DNA from: Heteronotia binoei
Taxonomy: Eukaryota
NCBI RefSeq assembly: GCF_032191835.1
Contig: NC_083237.1
Coordinates: 16,926,001-16,990,000, forward strand
Length of the DNA stretch: 64,000 nucleotides
Reading direction: 5' to 3'
The position numbers were made by a program. Positions 51,001 to 63,000 of this stretch are shown one piece after another. The stretch's first letter is position 1, and every line of letters starts with the position of its first letter.

Positions 51001-54000
51001 TTTGTCTGGGTTCTCAGCTGTGGCCTGTCTAACTTGGGTGGCCCTGCATGGCATAGCCCACAGCCTCATTGAACTACGCAAGCCCTCTCACCAAGTCAAG
51101 TCAGCAATCCCTGAGAGGGCTGTCACACATATAAACACACAAATATTGTAATGAAAGAGGCATCACACAAATCCACATGAAACAAACAGAGTTAGAGTTT
51201 TGTACTACTTGGTGAAACACATCTCTGCCCTCTCCAAAACAACCTCTGAGTGAATTGGGTGGTTGAACATCACCTACCAAAGCCATAATTTTTCACAATA
51301 GTATATTGTAAGAAATCAGAGGAAGGGGCAAAGCCAGCACACCATCTGTCTTCTAACACTGAGTATATAACTAATCAGACATTGGTTGGAAAGGTCATTT
51401 ATGAAGCATTACACAGTAGTAGAGGACATGTCTGATATCACCATCTAAAGCAGAGGTGACCAAACTTGCTTAATGTAAGAGTCACATAGAATACATGTCA
51501 GATGTTTGAGATCCGTAANNNNNNNNNNNNNNNNNNNNNNNNNNNNNNNNNNNNNNNNNNNNNNNNNNNNNNNNNNNNNNNNNNNNNNNNNNNNNNNNNN
51601 NNNNNNNNNNNNNNNNNNNNNNNNNNNNNNNNNNNNNNNNNNNNNNNNNNNNGGTGGAAAGAAAGCAACTTTAAGTGCATTCTCCAAGCTGCTGGCTGGC
51701 TTGACCTGGAGAAGTGATTTAAAGAGACAAATGCCTTCTCCAAGCTGGCCAACAGGGTGGTGGGGGTTTCAAGAACCACACAATATGTGTGAAAGAACCA
51801 CATGTGGCTCTCGAGTCACAGTTTGGCCACCCCTGATCTAAAGCAACTCATAATCCAGAGCATGCAAGGGCATTCAGTGGAAGCTGTGGAGAACTGCTGC
51901 CCTAGAAAATGCTAAGTTAGATAGAACACTTGTATTAGAGGCCATGAAGTTGACTGATTAGCAACACAGAGAATGTGTCAGACCTTCTTTCTGCCATCCA
52001 CTACAGCCCTAGGTTAATTCTGTATATGACATTATGTGCTTGGCCATCAGAGATCTCTGATCAGTGACCCATCATATAGTCTCTCTCTCTCTGTCTCTCC
52101 CTCTCTTTTGTAAAGTCCTCTTCTCACTTCTTCCTGCAACTAAATGTCACAGTGAGGGGTGGGATGGGAGGTTCCCAGGGGTCATTTTGTAGAAAAATAT
52201 GTGGTGGAGCTCATCCAGGGATTGTTATGCAGCTGCACCTACTATTCAATGGACAAAAAAAAGAAGACATTGGATTTATATTCCACCCTCCGCTCAAGAG
52301 TCTCAGAGCGGCTCACAATCTCCTTTATCTCCCTCCCCCACAACAGACACCCTGTGAGGTGGGTGGGGCTGAGAGAACTCTCACAGCAGCTGCCCTTTCA
52401 AGGACAACCTCTGCCAAAGCTATGGCTGACCCAAGGCCATTCCAGCAGCTGCAAGTGGAGGAGTGGGGAATCAAACCTGGTTCTCCCAGATAAGAGACCG
52501 CACACTTAACCACTACACCAAACTGGCTCTCTCAGAAGGTGGAACTCTCAGAAGGAGGAGGTGGAACCCTCAGAAAGGTTCATGAGCTGCGCTCCTGTGA
52601 GCTGCCACTGAATTCGAGGCCTAGAGGTTTCTATTCTTTGCTAAAGAAAAAAATCATTGCACAGTTCTCAGATTCACAGGGATTGGTTTAGTTTGACCAG
52701 TCCTTTCTGCATGCCAAACAACTTTTTCCCAACATGCGTAAGATTCTCCCATAGGATCCAGTCTGTTCAACCCAGTGATCATGGGTTTAACAAAACTTTT
52801 ATCACTACAAAAAATCAAGAAAAACATAGATTTGGAGCACTCTTTCTACCTCTGTGTTTGTTTGTGTGTGTGTGTGTGTGTGTGTGTAAAGTGCCCTCAA
52901 ACAGAAGCTGACCCATGGCATTCCCATACGGTTTTCAAGGCCAGTGATAAAGCAGATGTTGTTTGCTATTGTCCTAGTCTGCAAAGCCTAAAACACACTC
53001 ATATACACAAAGATCTATCTAAACATTGCATTCAAATCTTGTCTCCCAGCTGCCAACACTAAATGAAAGCTCTTTATTTCATCTTCAAACAATACTTTCA
53101 TCTGTCATCATCTTCGCAATATTTTGGACACTGCCGCATGGATGTCCTTATTGTGCGGGGTGTAAATGATAGGATTGAGAAGTGGAGTGACCACTACATA
53201 AAAGACTTCAACTTGTTTGTCTGCGTCAGAAGCTGAGCTTGACCATGGTCTCATATACATGGCAACAACAGTAACGTAGTACAAGGAAACCACCAGAAGT
53301 GAGAGCCACAGGTGGAGAAGGCCTTGCGCCTTCCGGCAGCTGACTTCATCCGTAACACCGTAGAAAGTATTTGAATATAGGGGGTCAGGATAGCTGTGAG
53401 TGTACCTGTGAGGAGTACCCCTGCCAACACAAAAATGATGACCTCTGTGGTGTGGGTATCTGCACATGCTAGTTTCAGCACGAGAGGCAGCTCACAGTAG
53501 AAGTGGTTGATGCGGTTGGGTCCACAGTAGGGGTGGCGAAGGAGGCAGGCCACATTTATGAGAGCATTTAAGAAGCCACCTCCCCAGGAGATGGAAACCA
53601 GCTGCAGCTGTCGACCCCTGCCCATGGCTATGGAGTATTCCAGGGGATAGCAGATGGCCAGGTAGCGGTCGTAGGCCATGACACTCAGCAGAATGAACTC
53701 AACCGTGCCCATGTATATACTGACAAACATCTGGGCTGTGCAATGTCTAAAAGAAATTATTCCATTCCCAGCTTTGAGGTGAGCTAGCATCTGGGACATG
53801 CTGGTGGTGAAATAACAGATTTCCAGGCCTGCAAAGTGCTTCAGGAAGAAGTACATGGGCATGTGGAGATTAGGGTCGGACCGGATGAGCATGATGATCC
53901 CCAGGTTCTCCATGACTGTAAGTGTGTAGATGAGGAGGAGGGTGACAAAGAGCAGGATCTGGGATCTTCGGTGACTGGTGAGCCCCACCAGGATGAACTC

Positions 54001-60000: not shown

Positions 60001-63000
60001 AGAAGTGGTTGATGTGGTTCAAGACACAAAAAGTATTGTATGATGGGTTCTAAGCATCTAGGAGGTGCGGTCGAAGTGATATCAAGCTCTTTATTACCGA
60101 CATCATAGTGGAGGCTGCCTAGTTAAGACTGAGAACTGGGCCAATGGGGCCAAACTTATATACATCTCTAGGTTTCCGCACAAGCACATTATTGGGTCAT
60201 TCAAATCGCTGGGGGCTTGTGGTTGGTCCAGGACTGCAGAGATTTGGATCCTGTAGCCCAGGGGTGGCCAATGGTAGCTCTCCAGATTTTTTTTGCCTAC
60301 AACTCCCATCAGCCCCAGCCATTGGCCATGCTGGCTGGGGCTGATGGGAGTTATAGGCAAAAAACATCTGGAGAGCTACCGTTGGCCACCCCTGCTGTAG
60401 CCCATTGTTCCCAAGTCCCCAAGCCAAGTCCGTATGGCTCCAATGAGCCAGGCAGGAACACCCAAAGTCTTCACTTGAGTCCACATACGTAACAAAAAAG
60501 ATAATGCAAAGCACAACCCATGTTTACTGCAGCAATGAAGAAACAACATGTCCAGGGAGCTAGAAAAGCTTCCACGGTGCCACCAGTCCATGGCAATGCC
60601 ATATATGGAGCACGTGGGATGTCCTTGTAGCACATAAGGCAAGGACATGGTACTCTTTCCAAGAAAAACTCTCTGTTTCTGGTATCTGTACATTTGTGTG
60701 TGTGTATTTCCCCATGCCTGAAAGCCATGGTCACAACTCTCCAAGAACTCTTGAATGAGCTTGAAAGCTAAATATCACCTTCCACATCCCAACCCACAGC
60801 TGAGCCTTTGTGTCAAAGGATTCTGGAATTTGAGGTGAAAATAACTCAGGAAGGAGACTCGAGAGATTGGGTCTGATCCAGAGTTGGAAGGGATTTCCAC
60901 GAGGACAGTGGGACTTGGTAAACCTCTCCTGTCCTGCTTCAGCCATTAAAATGCCATTAGCAGGAGACAAGGGAACCTGAACAACAGCAGGGTTCATACT
61001 GATGTGGAAAAAGAAATCAAGAAAAATTCTCCCTTTTCCATTAGCAGAAATTGACTTCTGGATCCAATACTGGATCCAGTATATCTAGCTTGTTTGAGAA
61101 TTAAATTCATAGATACTTCGCATGTTTACAAGAGAAGTTGTCTGTACACAGCAAGAATTGACACCTACAGAAAATTTCCAGTATTTTAAACGTGATCTTA
61201 TTAATTTTTGCATTAAGAATAAATTAATTAATTTTTAAACAAAGCAGGCAGTCAACCTTAAGTCGGGATCAGAAGCCAAATTGATCAAAGAATCTGGGGA
61301 TTTAAGTGAATTTATCAGAGGTATAGCAAAAGTAGAGTTGGTAACCTGAGCTTAACCCACTGGAGGAAAAATGGAGGCTGCCTATGGGAGTGATGGATGT
61401 TATCCTGTTTCCAACAGTGTCGGACTGGATACTTCTGGAAGTCCAACAAGCAGGGTGTCTCAGCCAGGTCCGCTTTCAGCTTCACACGTTCACACCTTCC
61501 ATTAGCAGTGACCAAGTTCATTTCGGTTATGGCGTATCTTGCAAGTAGACAGTAAAGCACTTTTAACAAATAGCTGTCCCAAATTATATGCTGATATTGT
61601 AGATGAAACCTGGAGAGGTAGTGGCTTACAATCGTCTTCCCTTCCTCACCCCACAACAGGCACCCTGTGAGATACATGAAGCTGAGAGAGTTCTGAGAGA
61701 ACTGAGTCCCACCCAAATTCACTCAGTTGACTGCATGTGGAGGAGTAGGAAACCAAACCCAGTTTTCCAACTTAGAGTTCATTTCTCTATGTTGCTGTCT
61801 TTCAGTGCTGCTCTTTCTCTACGAGCAGGAGACCAGGATGAGGCCTGAGAACCTCACATCTGTCATTGAGTTCATCACCAGCCACCGAAGGTCCCAGATC
61901 CTGCTTTTTGTTGTTATCCTTCTCATCTACACATATATAGTCATGGGAAACATGTTGATCATCATGCTGATCTGGGCTGACCCTCATCTCCACATGTCCA
62001 TGTTTTTCTTCCTGAAGCACTTTGCAGGCCTAGAGATCTGTTATGTCACCACCAGCATCCCCCAGATGCTGGCTCACCTCCAGACTGGGAATGGAAGAAT
62101 TTCTTTTAGACATTGCACAGCCCAGATGTATGTCAGTATGTGCCTGGGCACTGTTGAATTCTTTCTGCTGAGTGTCATGGCCTATGACCGCTACTTGGCC
62201 ATCTGCTGTCTTCTGCTCTACACTATTGCCATGGGCAGGAGTAAGCAGCTGCAGCTGGTATCAGCGTCCTGGGCAGGTGGCTTCTTCACTGCTCTTGTAT
62301 ATGTGGGCTGCGTCCTCCACCACCCCTACTGTGGACCCAACCACATCAACCACTTCTGCTGCGAGTTGCCTCTTGTGCTGAAACTGGCGTGTGCAGATAC
62401 CCACATCGCAGAGGCCATCATTTTTGTGTTTGCAGGGGTAGTCCTCATAGGTACACTTGCAGCTATCTTGACCTCCTATGCACTAATACTTTCCACTGTG
62501 TTACGGATGAAGTCAGCTGCCGGAAGGCACAAGGCCTTCTCCACCTGCGGCTCTCACTTGCTGGTGGTCTCTTTGTACTATAGTACTGTTATTGCCACGT
62601 ATATGAGACCCAGGTCACGGTCATCTCCTGACCTGGACAAACAAGTTGCTGTCTTTCATGTCATGATCAGCCCAATGCTCAATCCTGTCATTCACACCCT
62701 GCGCAATAAGGACAATCATGCGGCAGCGGTGAAAATATTGCAAAGATGTTGACAGATGAAATTGATATTCGAAGACTAAACAAAGAGCTTTCCTTCAGAT
62801 TTCAGTGTCAGCAACTGGGAGATAAGATCTGAATAGAATGTTTAAACGGACCTTTGTGTATCTGAGAGTGTTTTAGTCTTTGCAAACTAAGGCCATAGCA
62901 GACACTTTCTGCTTTATCACTTGCCTTGAAAAACTTACGAGGATGCCGAGGGTCAGCTTCTTTTTGATGGCAGTTCACACAAACAGAGGTAGTCCCCCAA

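What the first reader, a model, noticed from the sequence alone, without database searches (positions are those of the whole stretch)
52900..62930. Inverted duplication of a head-to-head OR pair (about 10-kb palindrome)
52900-55800 is the reverse-complement homolog of 60880-62930. The match covers the 3' flank (52930-53100 vs 62760-62930), the CDS, a shared SINE fragment about 60 bp before the acceptor (54085-54220 vs 61620-61775), the intergenic block (55060-55650 vs 61000-61620) and the start of the oppositely oriented OR remnant (55660-55770 vs 60880-60997). The layout is OR(-), remnant(+), spacer, remnant(-), OR(+). Both inner genes are dead and both outer genes are damaged or eroding. Inversion-type expansion of a divergent pair differs from the tandem duplication at 18-32 kb, and arms like these can undergo gene conversion or flip the spacer.
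Basis: seen in the sequence. Interest (0 to 1): 0.65.

Follow-up and report, generated by a model that had tools for sequence, protein, structure and literature searches.

The report
Old inverted duplicate of one gecko smell-receptor gene
Two mirror-image copies of a stretch carrying one olfactory receptor gene sit about 5 kb apart in a gecko receptor cluster; the copies are old, about 80% alike and decaying, which is ordinary for this gene family.

Summary
The inverted homology is real and larger than reported. The arms are 52041-55821 and 60837 to at least 63998, and the right arm runs off the window. They are separated by a 5,015-bp spacer. Homology is collinear through the coding exon, about 1 kb upstream, a shared old SINE fragment and at least 0.6 kb downstream, so it is not confined to CDS and repeats.

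The arms are old. Non-coding K2P is 0.24, CDS dS is 0.28, and the longest identical run is 32 bp. I found no conversion tract, so arm-to-arm recombination today is unlikely.

Each arm carries one OR gene, not a pair.
- The only inner OR remnant (60631-59864, minus strand) lies in the spacer on the right side.

The left gene has a 1-bp frameshift. The right gene is an open 304-aa ORF that has lost seven near-invariant positions. Both were constrained for most of their history.

The window is from the gecko Heteronotia binoei, not human. A paralogue outside the window, with a Gekko japonicus orthologue, groups with the left gene, which suggests the split predates those genera.

Verdict: an ordinary birth-and-death product.

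The parts
52041..55821 (-). Left arm of the inverted duplication (3,781 bp). Shared blocks are 52041-52197, 52624-54218 and 55073-55821. Insertions found only in this arm are 52198-52623 and 54219-55072.
   Evidence: blastn at word size 7, four collinear inverted blocks. Global alignments give 78.7-84.6% identity without gaps. Sizes.
53108..54030 (-). OR5L, the left-arm olfactory receptor pseudogene. A single 1-bp deletion near 53297 shifts the frame inside the KAFSTCGSH region. There is no other stop in the original frame.
   Evidence: ORF list, tblastn in two frames, codon alignment, read-through with X at the break. The N-terminal 244 aa score 116.5 bits on Pfam 7tm_4.
54085..54218 (-). Old SINE fragment shared with the right arm. 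It lies about 50 bp upstream of the putative splice acceptor.
   Evidence: Matches the roughly 280-bp repeat family that has six fuller copies in the window. It is 83% identical to the in-window consensus, against 94-98% for those six copies. Alignment A1.
52198..52623 (.). Insertion found only in the left arm (426 bp). It contains a younger copy of the same SINE family at 52255-52531.
   Evidence: Absent from the right arm. The SINE copy is 94.3% identical to the in-window consensus.
54219..55072 (.). Insertion found only in the left arm (854 bp), made of repeat pieces. It holds a LINE-tail fragment at 54306-54402 and a 161-bp hairpin element at 54819-54979. The right arm has 28 bp at this site.
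   Evidence: The hairpin gives only sub-threshold miRNA-family matches.
55822..60836 (.). Single-copy spacer (5,015 bp). It contains repeat copies (55828-56096 and 57039-57287 in opposite orientation, and a 67-bp x3 tandem at 58711-58914) plus the one inner OR remnant.
   Evidence: No inverted homology beyond the arm ends: Smith-Waterman score 9 against a shuffle mean of 10.7. Repeats.
59864..60631 (-). Dead OR remnant, head-to-head with the right-arm gene. Model positions 365-506 lie at 60631-60493 and positions 502-667 at 60031-59866. The two pieces are split by a 461-bp repeat insertion (60032-60492) that includes hairpin element 60254-60394. The 5' 364 nt and the 3' 260 nt are not detectable.
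   Evidence: nhmmer E = 2.4e-08 and 2.9e-21, tblastn, protein HMM search, repeat matches.
60837..64000 (+). Right arm, cut by the window end. Shared blocks are 60837-61621, 61650-63146 and 63829-63998. An insertion found only in this arm is 63147-63828, which holds a copy (63257-63749) of a roughly 500-bp repeat family.
61838..62752 (+). OR6R, the right-arm olfactory receptor gene. It is an open 304-aa ORF with a 12-bp in-frame deletion (EFI/TSH junction). It also has PMY changed to SMF, CxPL changed to CLL, and NPxxY changed to NPVIH.
   Evidence: ORF list. Pfam 7tm_4 scores 145.9 bits, against 178.6 and 186.4 for two intact neighbours. It departs at 7 of 81 conserved columns; the maximum among 114 homologues is 5.
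61620..61775 (+). Right-arm copy of the shared old SINE fragment.
   Evidence: 80% identical to the in-window consensus.
42510..43442 (+). OR4, an intact paralogue outside the palindrome that is nearly as close to each arm gene. Its homology stops about 45 bp upstream of the ATG and at the stop codon.
   Evidence: K2P 0.216 and 0.206 to the arm genes. No collinear flank homology.

Best explanation
This is an old inverted segmental duplication inside a class II olfactory receptor cluster of the gecko Heteronotia binoei.

What was copied (shown): a segment with one single-exon OR gene, about 1 kb of upstream sequence that already held a SINE fragment, and at least 0.6 kb of downstream sequence. 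It now exists in two mirror-image copies whose 5' ends face each other across a 5-kb single-copy spacer.

History since the copies separated:
- About one neutral site in five has changed (shown).
- Each arm has taken up its own transposon insertions (shown).
- Both coding regions stayed under purifying selection for most of that time (inferred from the indel deficit and omega below 1).
- Both have lately lost constraint. The left copy died by a 1-bp deletion. The right copy is still open but has lost invariant receptor residues (shown).

The neighbouring dead OR in the spacer belongs to the right side only. The unit that was copied was therefore a gene plus flanks, not a divergent gene pair.

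Origin (inferred, not shown): a fold-back or template-switch type of inverted duplication that leaves a kilobase-sized single-copy spacer. A tandem duplication followed by inversion would give the same picture.

Present state (inferred from the divergence): the arms are too diverged to recombine or convert, so this is a fossil of birth-and-death evolution, not an active palindrome.
For: - Four collinear inverted blocks, E from 2e-11 to 0.
- Even divergence across segment types. K2P is 0.19-0.30 in non-coding segments, 0.239 over all 1,470 non-coding sites and 0.171-0.175 in the CDS. dS is 0.276.
- No long identical tract.
- 27 gap events in about 1,684 non-coding columns against 2 in the 915-bp CDS, where 14.7 would be expected; Poisson P = 5e-05.
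- Branch omega is 0.68 for the left gene, 0.38 for the right gene and 0.22 for OR4.
- The shared SINE fragment is 80-83% identical to the family consensus, against 94% for the copy found only in one arm.
- The remnant is detected only at 60631-59864, and the arm ends show no OR signal.
- The 5,015-bp spacer lies within the 766-70,466 bp range (median 3,428 bp) reported for sequenced human fold-back inverted duplications (PMC3907307, passages read).
- Host identity: window-encoded proteins sit on a 68,086,271-bp contig, the same length as the contig carrying named H. binoei proteins.
Against: - The outer junction lies beyond the window, and the inner junction shows no recognisable inverted microhomology. 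A SINE tail abuts the left arm end at 55822-55828. The mechanism of origin therefore has no direct support.
- The protein tree places the left gene with an out-of-window paralogue (XP_060112118.1) and its Gekko japonicus orthologue, support 99/97, and not with the right gene. The two arms may therefore not come from one local event.
- That grouping is not decisive. The AU test does not reject an exclusive left-right pair (delta lnL 14.45, p = 0.138), and I named the tests after seeing the tree.
- Extrapolation from model position 365 at 60631 puts the remnant's start near 60995, inside the right arm. The copied unit could have included about 160 bp of the neighbouring gene that is now unrecognisable.
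Confidence: 0.72

Rival explanations
1. A head-to-head pair of OR genes was duplicated in inverted orientation, so each arm ends in the 5' start of an inner OR gene. The left inner copy was born truncated or was later cut down.
For: - The arm-shared inner ends (55645-55821 / 60837-61010) are homologous to each other at 75.8% over 153 sites.
- The right remnant aligns from model position 365 at 60631, which extrapolates to a start near 60995, inside the arm.
- There is an ATG at 60997.
Against: - Neither arm end shows OR similarity at the DNA level: z = -1.1 to 2.1 against 100 shuffles, against z = 10 for a true remnant piece.
- Neither shows it at the protein level: no hit to model positions 1-146 in any of six frames, even at E up to 100.
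- The 205 bp between the arm end and the first detectable remnant piece (60632-60836) are also not OR-like.
- Nothing OR-like lies in the left half of the spacer.
Confidence: 0.2
2. A two-step or multi-copy history. The arm segment exists in at least three copies. The left arm is a later copy of the locus of the out-of-window gene XP_060112118.1, or that gene is a later copy of the left arm. The mirror arrangement seen here would then be a by-product of several rearrangements, not one fold-back event.
For: - The left gene is 81.7% identical in protein to XP_060112118.1 and 84.3% to its Gekko orthologue, against 74.8% to the right gene.
- The clade of those three has support 99/97.
- Quartet sites favour left gene + XP_060112118.1 at 11 sites, against 6 and 3 for the other two groupings.
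Against: - The AU test does not reject left + right as an exclusive pair (p = 0.138).
- The left gene's likeness to the outside paralogue is concentrated in residues 1-60 and 251-307. That pattern could instead come from gene conversion, or from the right gene's own fast change at its ends.
- No DNA of the outside locus could be seen.
Confidence: 0.35
3. An active palindrome whose arms still exchange sequence by gene conversion, or can invert the spacer by recombination between the arms.
For: The inverted orientation with a short spacer is the required geometry. Identity in CDS windows reaches 0.89-0.91.
Against: - Those windows lie in the coding region, where selection explains them.
- dS (0.276) is no lower than non-coding K2P (0.239).
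- The longest identical run is 32 bp and is reached in 334 of 2,000 shuffles.
- There are 29 gap events and three large insertions found in only one arm.
Confidence: 0.04
4. An assembly artefact, or a chance or repeat-only resemblance.
For: An N run (51519-51652) lies about 390 bp outside the last detectable left-arm block.
Against: - Artefactual duplicates are near-identical. These arms differ at about 20% of sites and in indels.
- Homology runs collinearly through sequence that is unique within the window.
- E-values are 0 and 2.5e-104.
Confidence: 0.01

Closest known systems
Birth-and-death evolution of vertebrate olfactory receptor clusters by local segmental duplication and pseudogenisation (the concept is recalled from general knowledge, Nei and co-workers; no paper on it was read here)
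   Same: Paralogues of one subfamily lie side by side. One copy is dead, one is decaying and one is intact, with transposon insertions between them. The window holds six OR coding regions plus one remnant.
   Different: The copy is inverted and not in tandem. The same window also holds a tandem pair at 19.6-20.6 kb and 27.6-28.6 kb.
Inverted olfactory-receptor/defensin low-copy repeats at human 8p23.1, which mediate the 8p23 inversion polymorphism and inv dup del(8p) by non-allelic homologous recombination (PMC8954119, passages read; it cites Giglio et al. 2001, which I did not read)
   Same: OR-bearing repeats in inverted orientation flank a single-copy interval.
   Different: Those repeats flank a megabase-scale interval and are similar enough to recombine. 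I recall, but did not check, that they are hundreds of kb long and above 95% identical. The present arms are about 3-4 kb, about 80% identical, 5 kb apart, and show no sign of exchange.
Fold-back inverted duplications with a single-copy spacer (PMC3907307, abstract and passages read)
   Same: Two inverted copies are separated by a kilobase-sized unduplicated spacer. The 5,015 bp here compares with a reported 766-70,466 bp, median 3,428 bp.
   Different: Those are recent, megabase-scale, terminal events with sequenced junctions showing 2-8 bp of inverted microhomology or hybrid repeats. Here the event is interstitial, small and ancient. One junction is out of view and the other shows no readable microhomology.
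Sex-chromosome palindromes kept above 99.9% identical by arm-to-arm gene conversion (recalled; no paper read)
   Same: Inverted arms carry genes around a short spacer.
   Different: Arm identity here is about 80% with no conversion tracts.

Membership tests
Olfactory receptor (Pfam 7tm_4, rhodopsin-like GPCR) | Match to the family profile above its curated cut-off | tested here: met
   7tm_4 scores 145.9 bits for OR6R and 116.5 bits for the N-terminal 244 aa of OR5L. The cut-off is 27.
Olfactory receptor (functional gene) | Uninterrupted single-exon ORF of about 310 codons | tested here: inconclusive
   OR6R: met (304 aa). OR5L: not met, 1-bp deletion near 53297. Inner remnant: not met.
Olfactory receptor (functional gene) | Invariant receptor residues kept. 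The motif names PMY, MAYDRY, CxPLxY, KAFSTC and NPxxY are recalled; the conservation was measured here. | tested here: not met
   OR6R departs at 7 of 81 columns that are at least 95% conserved in 114 homologues: G13 deleted, P54S, Y56F, L62F, P125L, Y274H, Y286H. OR5L departs at 6. The 114 homologues depart at 0-5, and 54 of them at none.
Inverted segmental duplication | Collinear reverse-complement homology that runs beyond coding sequence and interspersed repeats | tested here: met
   Four collinear blocks include sequence unique within the window upstream (60837-61621) and downstream (62753-63146, 63829-63998).
   z = -1.1 to 2.1 against shuffles, with a control at z = 10. No six-frame HMM hit. 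nhmmer found remnant pieces only at 60631-59866.
Conversion-maintained palindrome or recombination-competent inverted low-copy repeat | Near-identical arms with long uninterrupted identity. The thresholds of about 95% or more and hundreds of bp are recalled. | tested here: not met
   79.7% identity over 1,470 non-coding sites. The longest identical run is 32 bp.
Fold-back inverted duplication | Single-copy spacer of about 0.8-70 kb between the inverted copies | tested here: met
   The spacer is 5,015 bp as it stands today, later insertions included. The range is from PMC3907307.
Fold-back inverted duplication | Short inverted homology or a hybrid repeat at the spacer-inversion junction | tested here: inconclusive
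   None is readable at 55821/55822 or 60836/60837. A SINE tail abuts the left junction. At K of about 0.24, a 2-8 bp microhomology would not be recognisable.
Fold-back inverted duplication | Nature of the outer junction | not testable with these tools
   The right arm runs off the window at 64000, and the rest of the chromosome was not available.

The most novel reading that the evidence does not exclude
The visible palindrome may be one part of a larger, multi-copy rearranged block. The arm segment would exist at least three times on this chromosome, the third copy carrying XP_060112118.1. The left gene's mixed affinities would reflect sequence exchange among these copies after they separated: like the outside paralogue at residues 1-60 and 251-307, and equidistant from it and the right gene in between. 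In that reading an old inverted repeat in a gecko OR cluster took part in inter-paralogue conversion that reshuffled receptor termini, and the structure has persisted since before Heteronotia and Gekko diverged.
Probability: 0.12. Interest if true: 0.35.

Novelty: new member of a known kind. Interest (0 to 1): 0.15.

Why it matters
It adds one documented case showing that OR clusters in squamates grow by inverted as well as tandem local duplication. It also shows that both copies of such a duplicate can stay under selection for a long time before decaying.

For annotation:
- The left gene is a pseudogene with a single lesion.
- The right gene is an open frame that probably no longer makes a working receptor.
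- The inner block should not be annotated as an OR remnant.

It has little bearing on genome stability, because the arms are too diverged to recombine.

Tried and rejected
I replaced it with a local HMM built from the five intact window OR proteins, searched against six frames with X at the stops.
- nhmmer on two short excerpts returned nothing at all, not even the known remnant edge, so I took it as technically uninformative. I replaced it with Smith-Waterman against shuffles.
- One search stopped on a script error after printing the per-segment K2P values. The remainder was rerun.
- Conversion tracts: sliding windows, three-taxon site patterns (88 / 69 / 62) and run-length shuffles gave none.
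- The concatenated-block run of 37 bp spans a join between blocks, so I disregard it.
- Mosaic test on proteins. The left and right genes differ more at the ends (37/113) than in the middle (39/189), Fisher p = 0.02. The right gene shows the same tendency against OR4, though that contrast is not significant (33/113 vs 43/190, p = 0.22), so this is not good evidence of exchange.
- Flank homology of OR4: none beyond one roughly 85-bp repeat fragment in the opposite order.
- A recalled O/E-like site (TCCCNNGGGA, up to 1 mismatch) was absent from both upstream blocks.
- Rfam gave only sub-threshold miRNA-family matches on hairpin repeats, and ARAGORN found no tRNA.
- Literature searches listed nothing on this locus or on OR palindromes in geckos. 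I read the listings only, apart from the two papers cited.
- Absolute dating was not attempted, because I had no checked gecko substitution rate.

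
Full report
**Source and limits**

The window is not human. Three proteins it encodes are held on a 68,086,271-bp contig, the same length as the contig that carries named Heteronotia binoei (Bynoe's gecko) proteins. All the nearest homologues are gecko and other squamate olfactory receptors.
- N runs at 34021-34225 and 51519-51652 were left as they are.
Synteny, the region to the right of the window and population variation therefore stayed unchecked.
- Paper supplements were not needed.

Yes. The repeat finder lists 15 inverted pairs in 50000-64000. 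Eight of them lie on one diagonal: I1-I4, I6, I9, I11 and I12.

Self-blastn gives two main matches:
- 52691-54218 against 63146-61650, 80.4% over 1,544 columns, E = 0.
- 55073-55821 against 61621-60837, 68.4% over 827 columns, E = 2.5e-104.

- 52624-52692 against 63896-63829 (81%).
- 52041-52197 against 63998-63869 (71%).

The arms therefore span 52041-55821 (3,781 bp) and 60837 to at least 63998. The right arm is cut by the window end. The spacer is 5,015 bp and the visible structure is 11,958 bp.

Three stretches are present in one arm only:
- 52198-52623, with a SINE copy at 52255-52531.
- 54219-55072, holding LINE-tail and hairpin repeat pieces.
- 63147-63828, with a copy of a roughly 500-bp repeat family.

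The upstream block and the 3' flank have no other copy in the window, and all blocks keep their order and orientation. An assembly artefact is excluded by the divergence itself.

**Age and homogeneity**

| Segment | Identity without gaps | K2P |
|---|---|---|
| Inner block | 78.7% | 0.253 |
| Main block | 82.9% | 0.197 |
| Two outer blocks | 82-85% | 0.211 and 0.176 |

By finer segment, K2P is 0.296 (arm ends), 0.242 (intergenic), 0.228 (SINE plus upstream), 0.171 (CDS), 0.249 (3' flank) and 0.187 (outer). Over all 1,470 non-coding sites it is 0.239. Synonymous divergence of the two genes is 0.276, no lower than the flanks.
- Every full 100-column window lies between 0.74 and 0.91. One terminal 43-bp window is at 0.62.
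- The longest identical run is 32 bp, reached or exceeded in 334 of 2,000 column shuffles of the main block.
- In the inner block a 24-bp run is exceeded in only 34 of 2,000 shuffles. Gap columns cluster there, which biases that control.

I see no conversion tract, and the arms look like one event of one age. At this divergence, recombination between the arms to flip the spacer is unlikely. This is an inference from recalled requirements for long near-identical tracts.

**What each arm carries**

*Left arm: OR5L, 53108-54030, minus strand.* It has one 1-bp deletion near 53297 and no other stop in the original frame.

*Right arm: OR6R, 61838-62752, plus strand.* It is an open 304-codon frame with a 12-bp in-frame deletion.
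- Both genes match Pfam 7tm_4. OR6R scores 145.9 bits, against 178.6 and 186.4 for two intact neighbours.
- Among 81 columns conserved in at least 95% of 114 homologues, OR6R departs at 7, including the Tyr of NPxxY and the Pro of PMY. OR5L departs at 6. The 114 homologues depart at 0-5, and 54 of them at none. The 114 helped define the columns, which slightly favours them.

*Selection history.*
- Both genes were long constrained. The arms differ by 27 gap events in about 1,684 non-coding columns but only 2 in the 915-bp CDS, where 14.7 would be expected. Poisson P is 5e-05, or 0.023 if only one copy had been neutral throughout.
- Branch omega is 0.68 (OR5L), 0.38 (OR6R) and 0.22 (OR4).
- In a neutral simulation at 0.12 changes per site, 6% of copies keep an open frame.
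- 'Damaged or eroding' is therefore right, but the erosion is late in the history.

*Shared SINE fragment.*
- It sits at 54085-54218 and 61620-61775, about 50 bp before a polypyrimidine-AG acceptor that lies 13 nt before the ATG.
- It is 80-83% identical to the in-window family consensus. The SINE copy found only in the left arm is 94% identical.
- This fits insertion before and after the duplication respectively.

**The inner 'remnants'**

A dead OR does lie head-to-head with OR6R, but only on the right and outside the arm.
- nhmmer aligns model positions 365-506 to 60631-60493 (E = 2.4e-08) and positions 502-667 to 60031-59866 (E = 2.9e-21), minus strand.
- tblastn and a protein HMM search agree.
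- A 461-bp repeat insertion splits the two pieces.

- The best local score against the six window OR genes gives z between -1.1 and 2.1 against 100 shuffles. A 139-bp true remnant piece gives z = 10.
- No frame matches model positions 1-146, even at E up to 100.
- Extrapolation from position 365 would put the remnant's start near 60995, so inclusion of about 160 bp of a now unrecognisable 5' end cannot be excluded. I give that reading 0.2.
- No homology continues beyond the arm ends: Smith-Waterman 9 against a shuffle mean of 10.7.
- The left arm end abuts the tail of a SINE copy at 55828-56096 (calling it a Sauria-type SINE rests on recall).

The layout is therefore: dead OR (minus), upstream copy, spacer that ends in a single dead OR (minus), upstream, OR (plus).

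**Relatives**

OR4 (42510-43442) is almost as close to each arm gene (K2P 0.216 and 0.206) as they are to each other (0.175). It shares only the CDS and about 45 bp before the ATG.

The search with OR6R found 2,274 proteins at E of 1e-30 or better among 4,162 candidates, of which 120 were listed. One of them is XP_060112118.1, an H. binoei protein on the same chromosome but not encoded in the window. It is 81.7% identical to OR5L, against 74.8% between OR5L and OR6R. Its 90% cluster also holds XP_015268220.1 of Gekko japonicus, which is 84.3% identical to OR5L.

The tree had 31 rows. It was built from 24 proteins I picked from the 120 listed plus the cluster member, together with the window genes and nearest hits, so most of the 120 were left out. 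It shows:
- OR5L, XP_060112118.1 and the Gekko protein form a clade with support 99/97.
- OR4 pairs with a Paroedura picta protein (100/99).
- OR6R joins these two groups in an unresolved gekkonid clade (93/91).

AU tests, which I named after seeing the tree:

| Grouping tested | Delta lnL | p-AU |
|---|---|---|
| OR5L + OR6R as an exclusive pair | 14.45 | 0.138 |
| OR6R as sister to the OR5L group | 2.01 | 0.363 |
| XP_060112118.1 + Gekko protein, excluding OR5L | 4.75 | 0.206 |

None of the three is rejected. Earlier tests without the Gekko row gave p = 0.096 and 0.272.

Taken at face value, the arms separated before Heteronotia and Gekko diverged, and the arm lineage was copied at least once more. 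Alternatively, the outside gene converted the ends of OR5L. OR5L is closer to it at residues 1-60 and 251-307 (18/117 differences, against 37/113 to OR6R) and equidistant in between (38/189 against 39/189). OR6R also tends to differ more at its ends from OR4, though not significantly (p = 0.22), so this pattern is weak evidence.

**Mechanism**

*Shown:* two inverted copies, a single-copy spacer, later insertions, late loss of constraint.

*Inferred:* an origin by a fold-back or template-switch event.
- Sequenced human cases of this kind have single-copy spacers of 766-70,466 bp, median 3,428 bp, and 2-8 bp of inverted microhomology or hybrid repeats at the junction (PMC3907307, abstract and passages).
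- The spacer here fits that range, but it includes later insertions.
- No junction signature is readable, and the outer junction is out of view.
- A tandem duplication followed by inversion is equally compatible.

**Comparison with known systems**

OR-bearing inverted low-copy repeats are well known from human 8p23.1, where they mediate an inversion polymorphism and inverted duplications by non-allelic recombination (PMC8954119, passages). The present arms share the geometry but not the similarity needed for that activity. The general frame is birth-and-death evolution of OR clusters (recalled). Searches for this locus or for OR palindromes in geckos listed nothing relevant (listings only).

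**Verdict**

This is a real but ordinary, ancient inverted duplicate of a single OR gene with its flanks. It is a new member of a known kind and of low interest. The open point worth one look is the third copy outside the window.

Noticed in passing
outside the window (protein P0003 = XP_060112118.1; P0121 = XP_015268220.1): A fourth member of the OR4/OR5L/OR6R subfamily lies on the same H. binoei chromosome but not in the window. It has a Gekko japonicus orthologue at 90.6% identity, and it groups with the left-arm pseudogene rather than with that gene's mirror partner.
   Followed up: partly
window 60254-60394, 48881-49021 and 54819-54979: These are self-complementary hairpin repeats of about 140-160 bp. 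One interrupts the inner OR remnant and one lies in the left-arm insertion. They give sub-threshold Rfam matches to miRNA precursor families: mir-5408 at 57.5 bits against a cut-off of 90, and mir-3938 at 45.1 against 94.
   Followed up: partly
window 58711-58914: A 67-bp unit is repeated three times in tandem at 94% match. Single units of the same repeat occur at 4840-4895, 25117-25190, 27478-27550 and 44805-44874, so it looks like the variable part of an interspersed repeat.
   Followed up: no
window 48018-50508, minus strand: Two long LINE ORFs lie just outside the left arm: 494 aa with an endonuclease match and 243 aa with a reverse transcriptase match. They are long enough to suggest a fairly recent insertion. 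A further 464-aa reverse transcriptase ORF is at 76-1470.
   Followed up: partly
window 19559-20587 vs 27549-28575 and flanks: The tandem OR pair has CDS K2P of 0.092 and dS of 0.214, while its flanks match at only 80-82%. By synonymous and flank divergence it is roughly as old as the inverted pair, yet both of its genes are intact.
   Followed up: partly
window 1749-2256, 31330-31864, 45646-46142, 46345-46852, 63257-63749: A roughly 500-bp interspersed repeat has five copies at 77-87% mutual identity. Two lie about 200 bp apart in the same orientation at 45.6-46.9 kb, and one forms most of the insertion found only in the right arm.
   Followed up: no
protein P0002 (H. binoei, 511 aa, not in the window): The public model named 'putative olfactory receptor 2W6' looks like a partial OR domain fused to a complete one. 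It is probably a merged gene model of neighbouring ORs.
   Followed up: no
window 55828-56096 and 57039-57287: Two copies of one repeat sit in opposite orientation at the left edge of the spacer (74% identity over 270 bp, with a 109-nt core at 91%). The tail of the first abuts the end of the left arm. I could not tell whether this repeat played a part in the rearrangement.
   Followed up: partly
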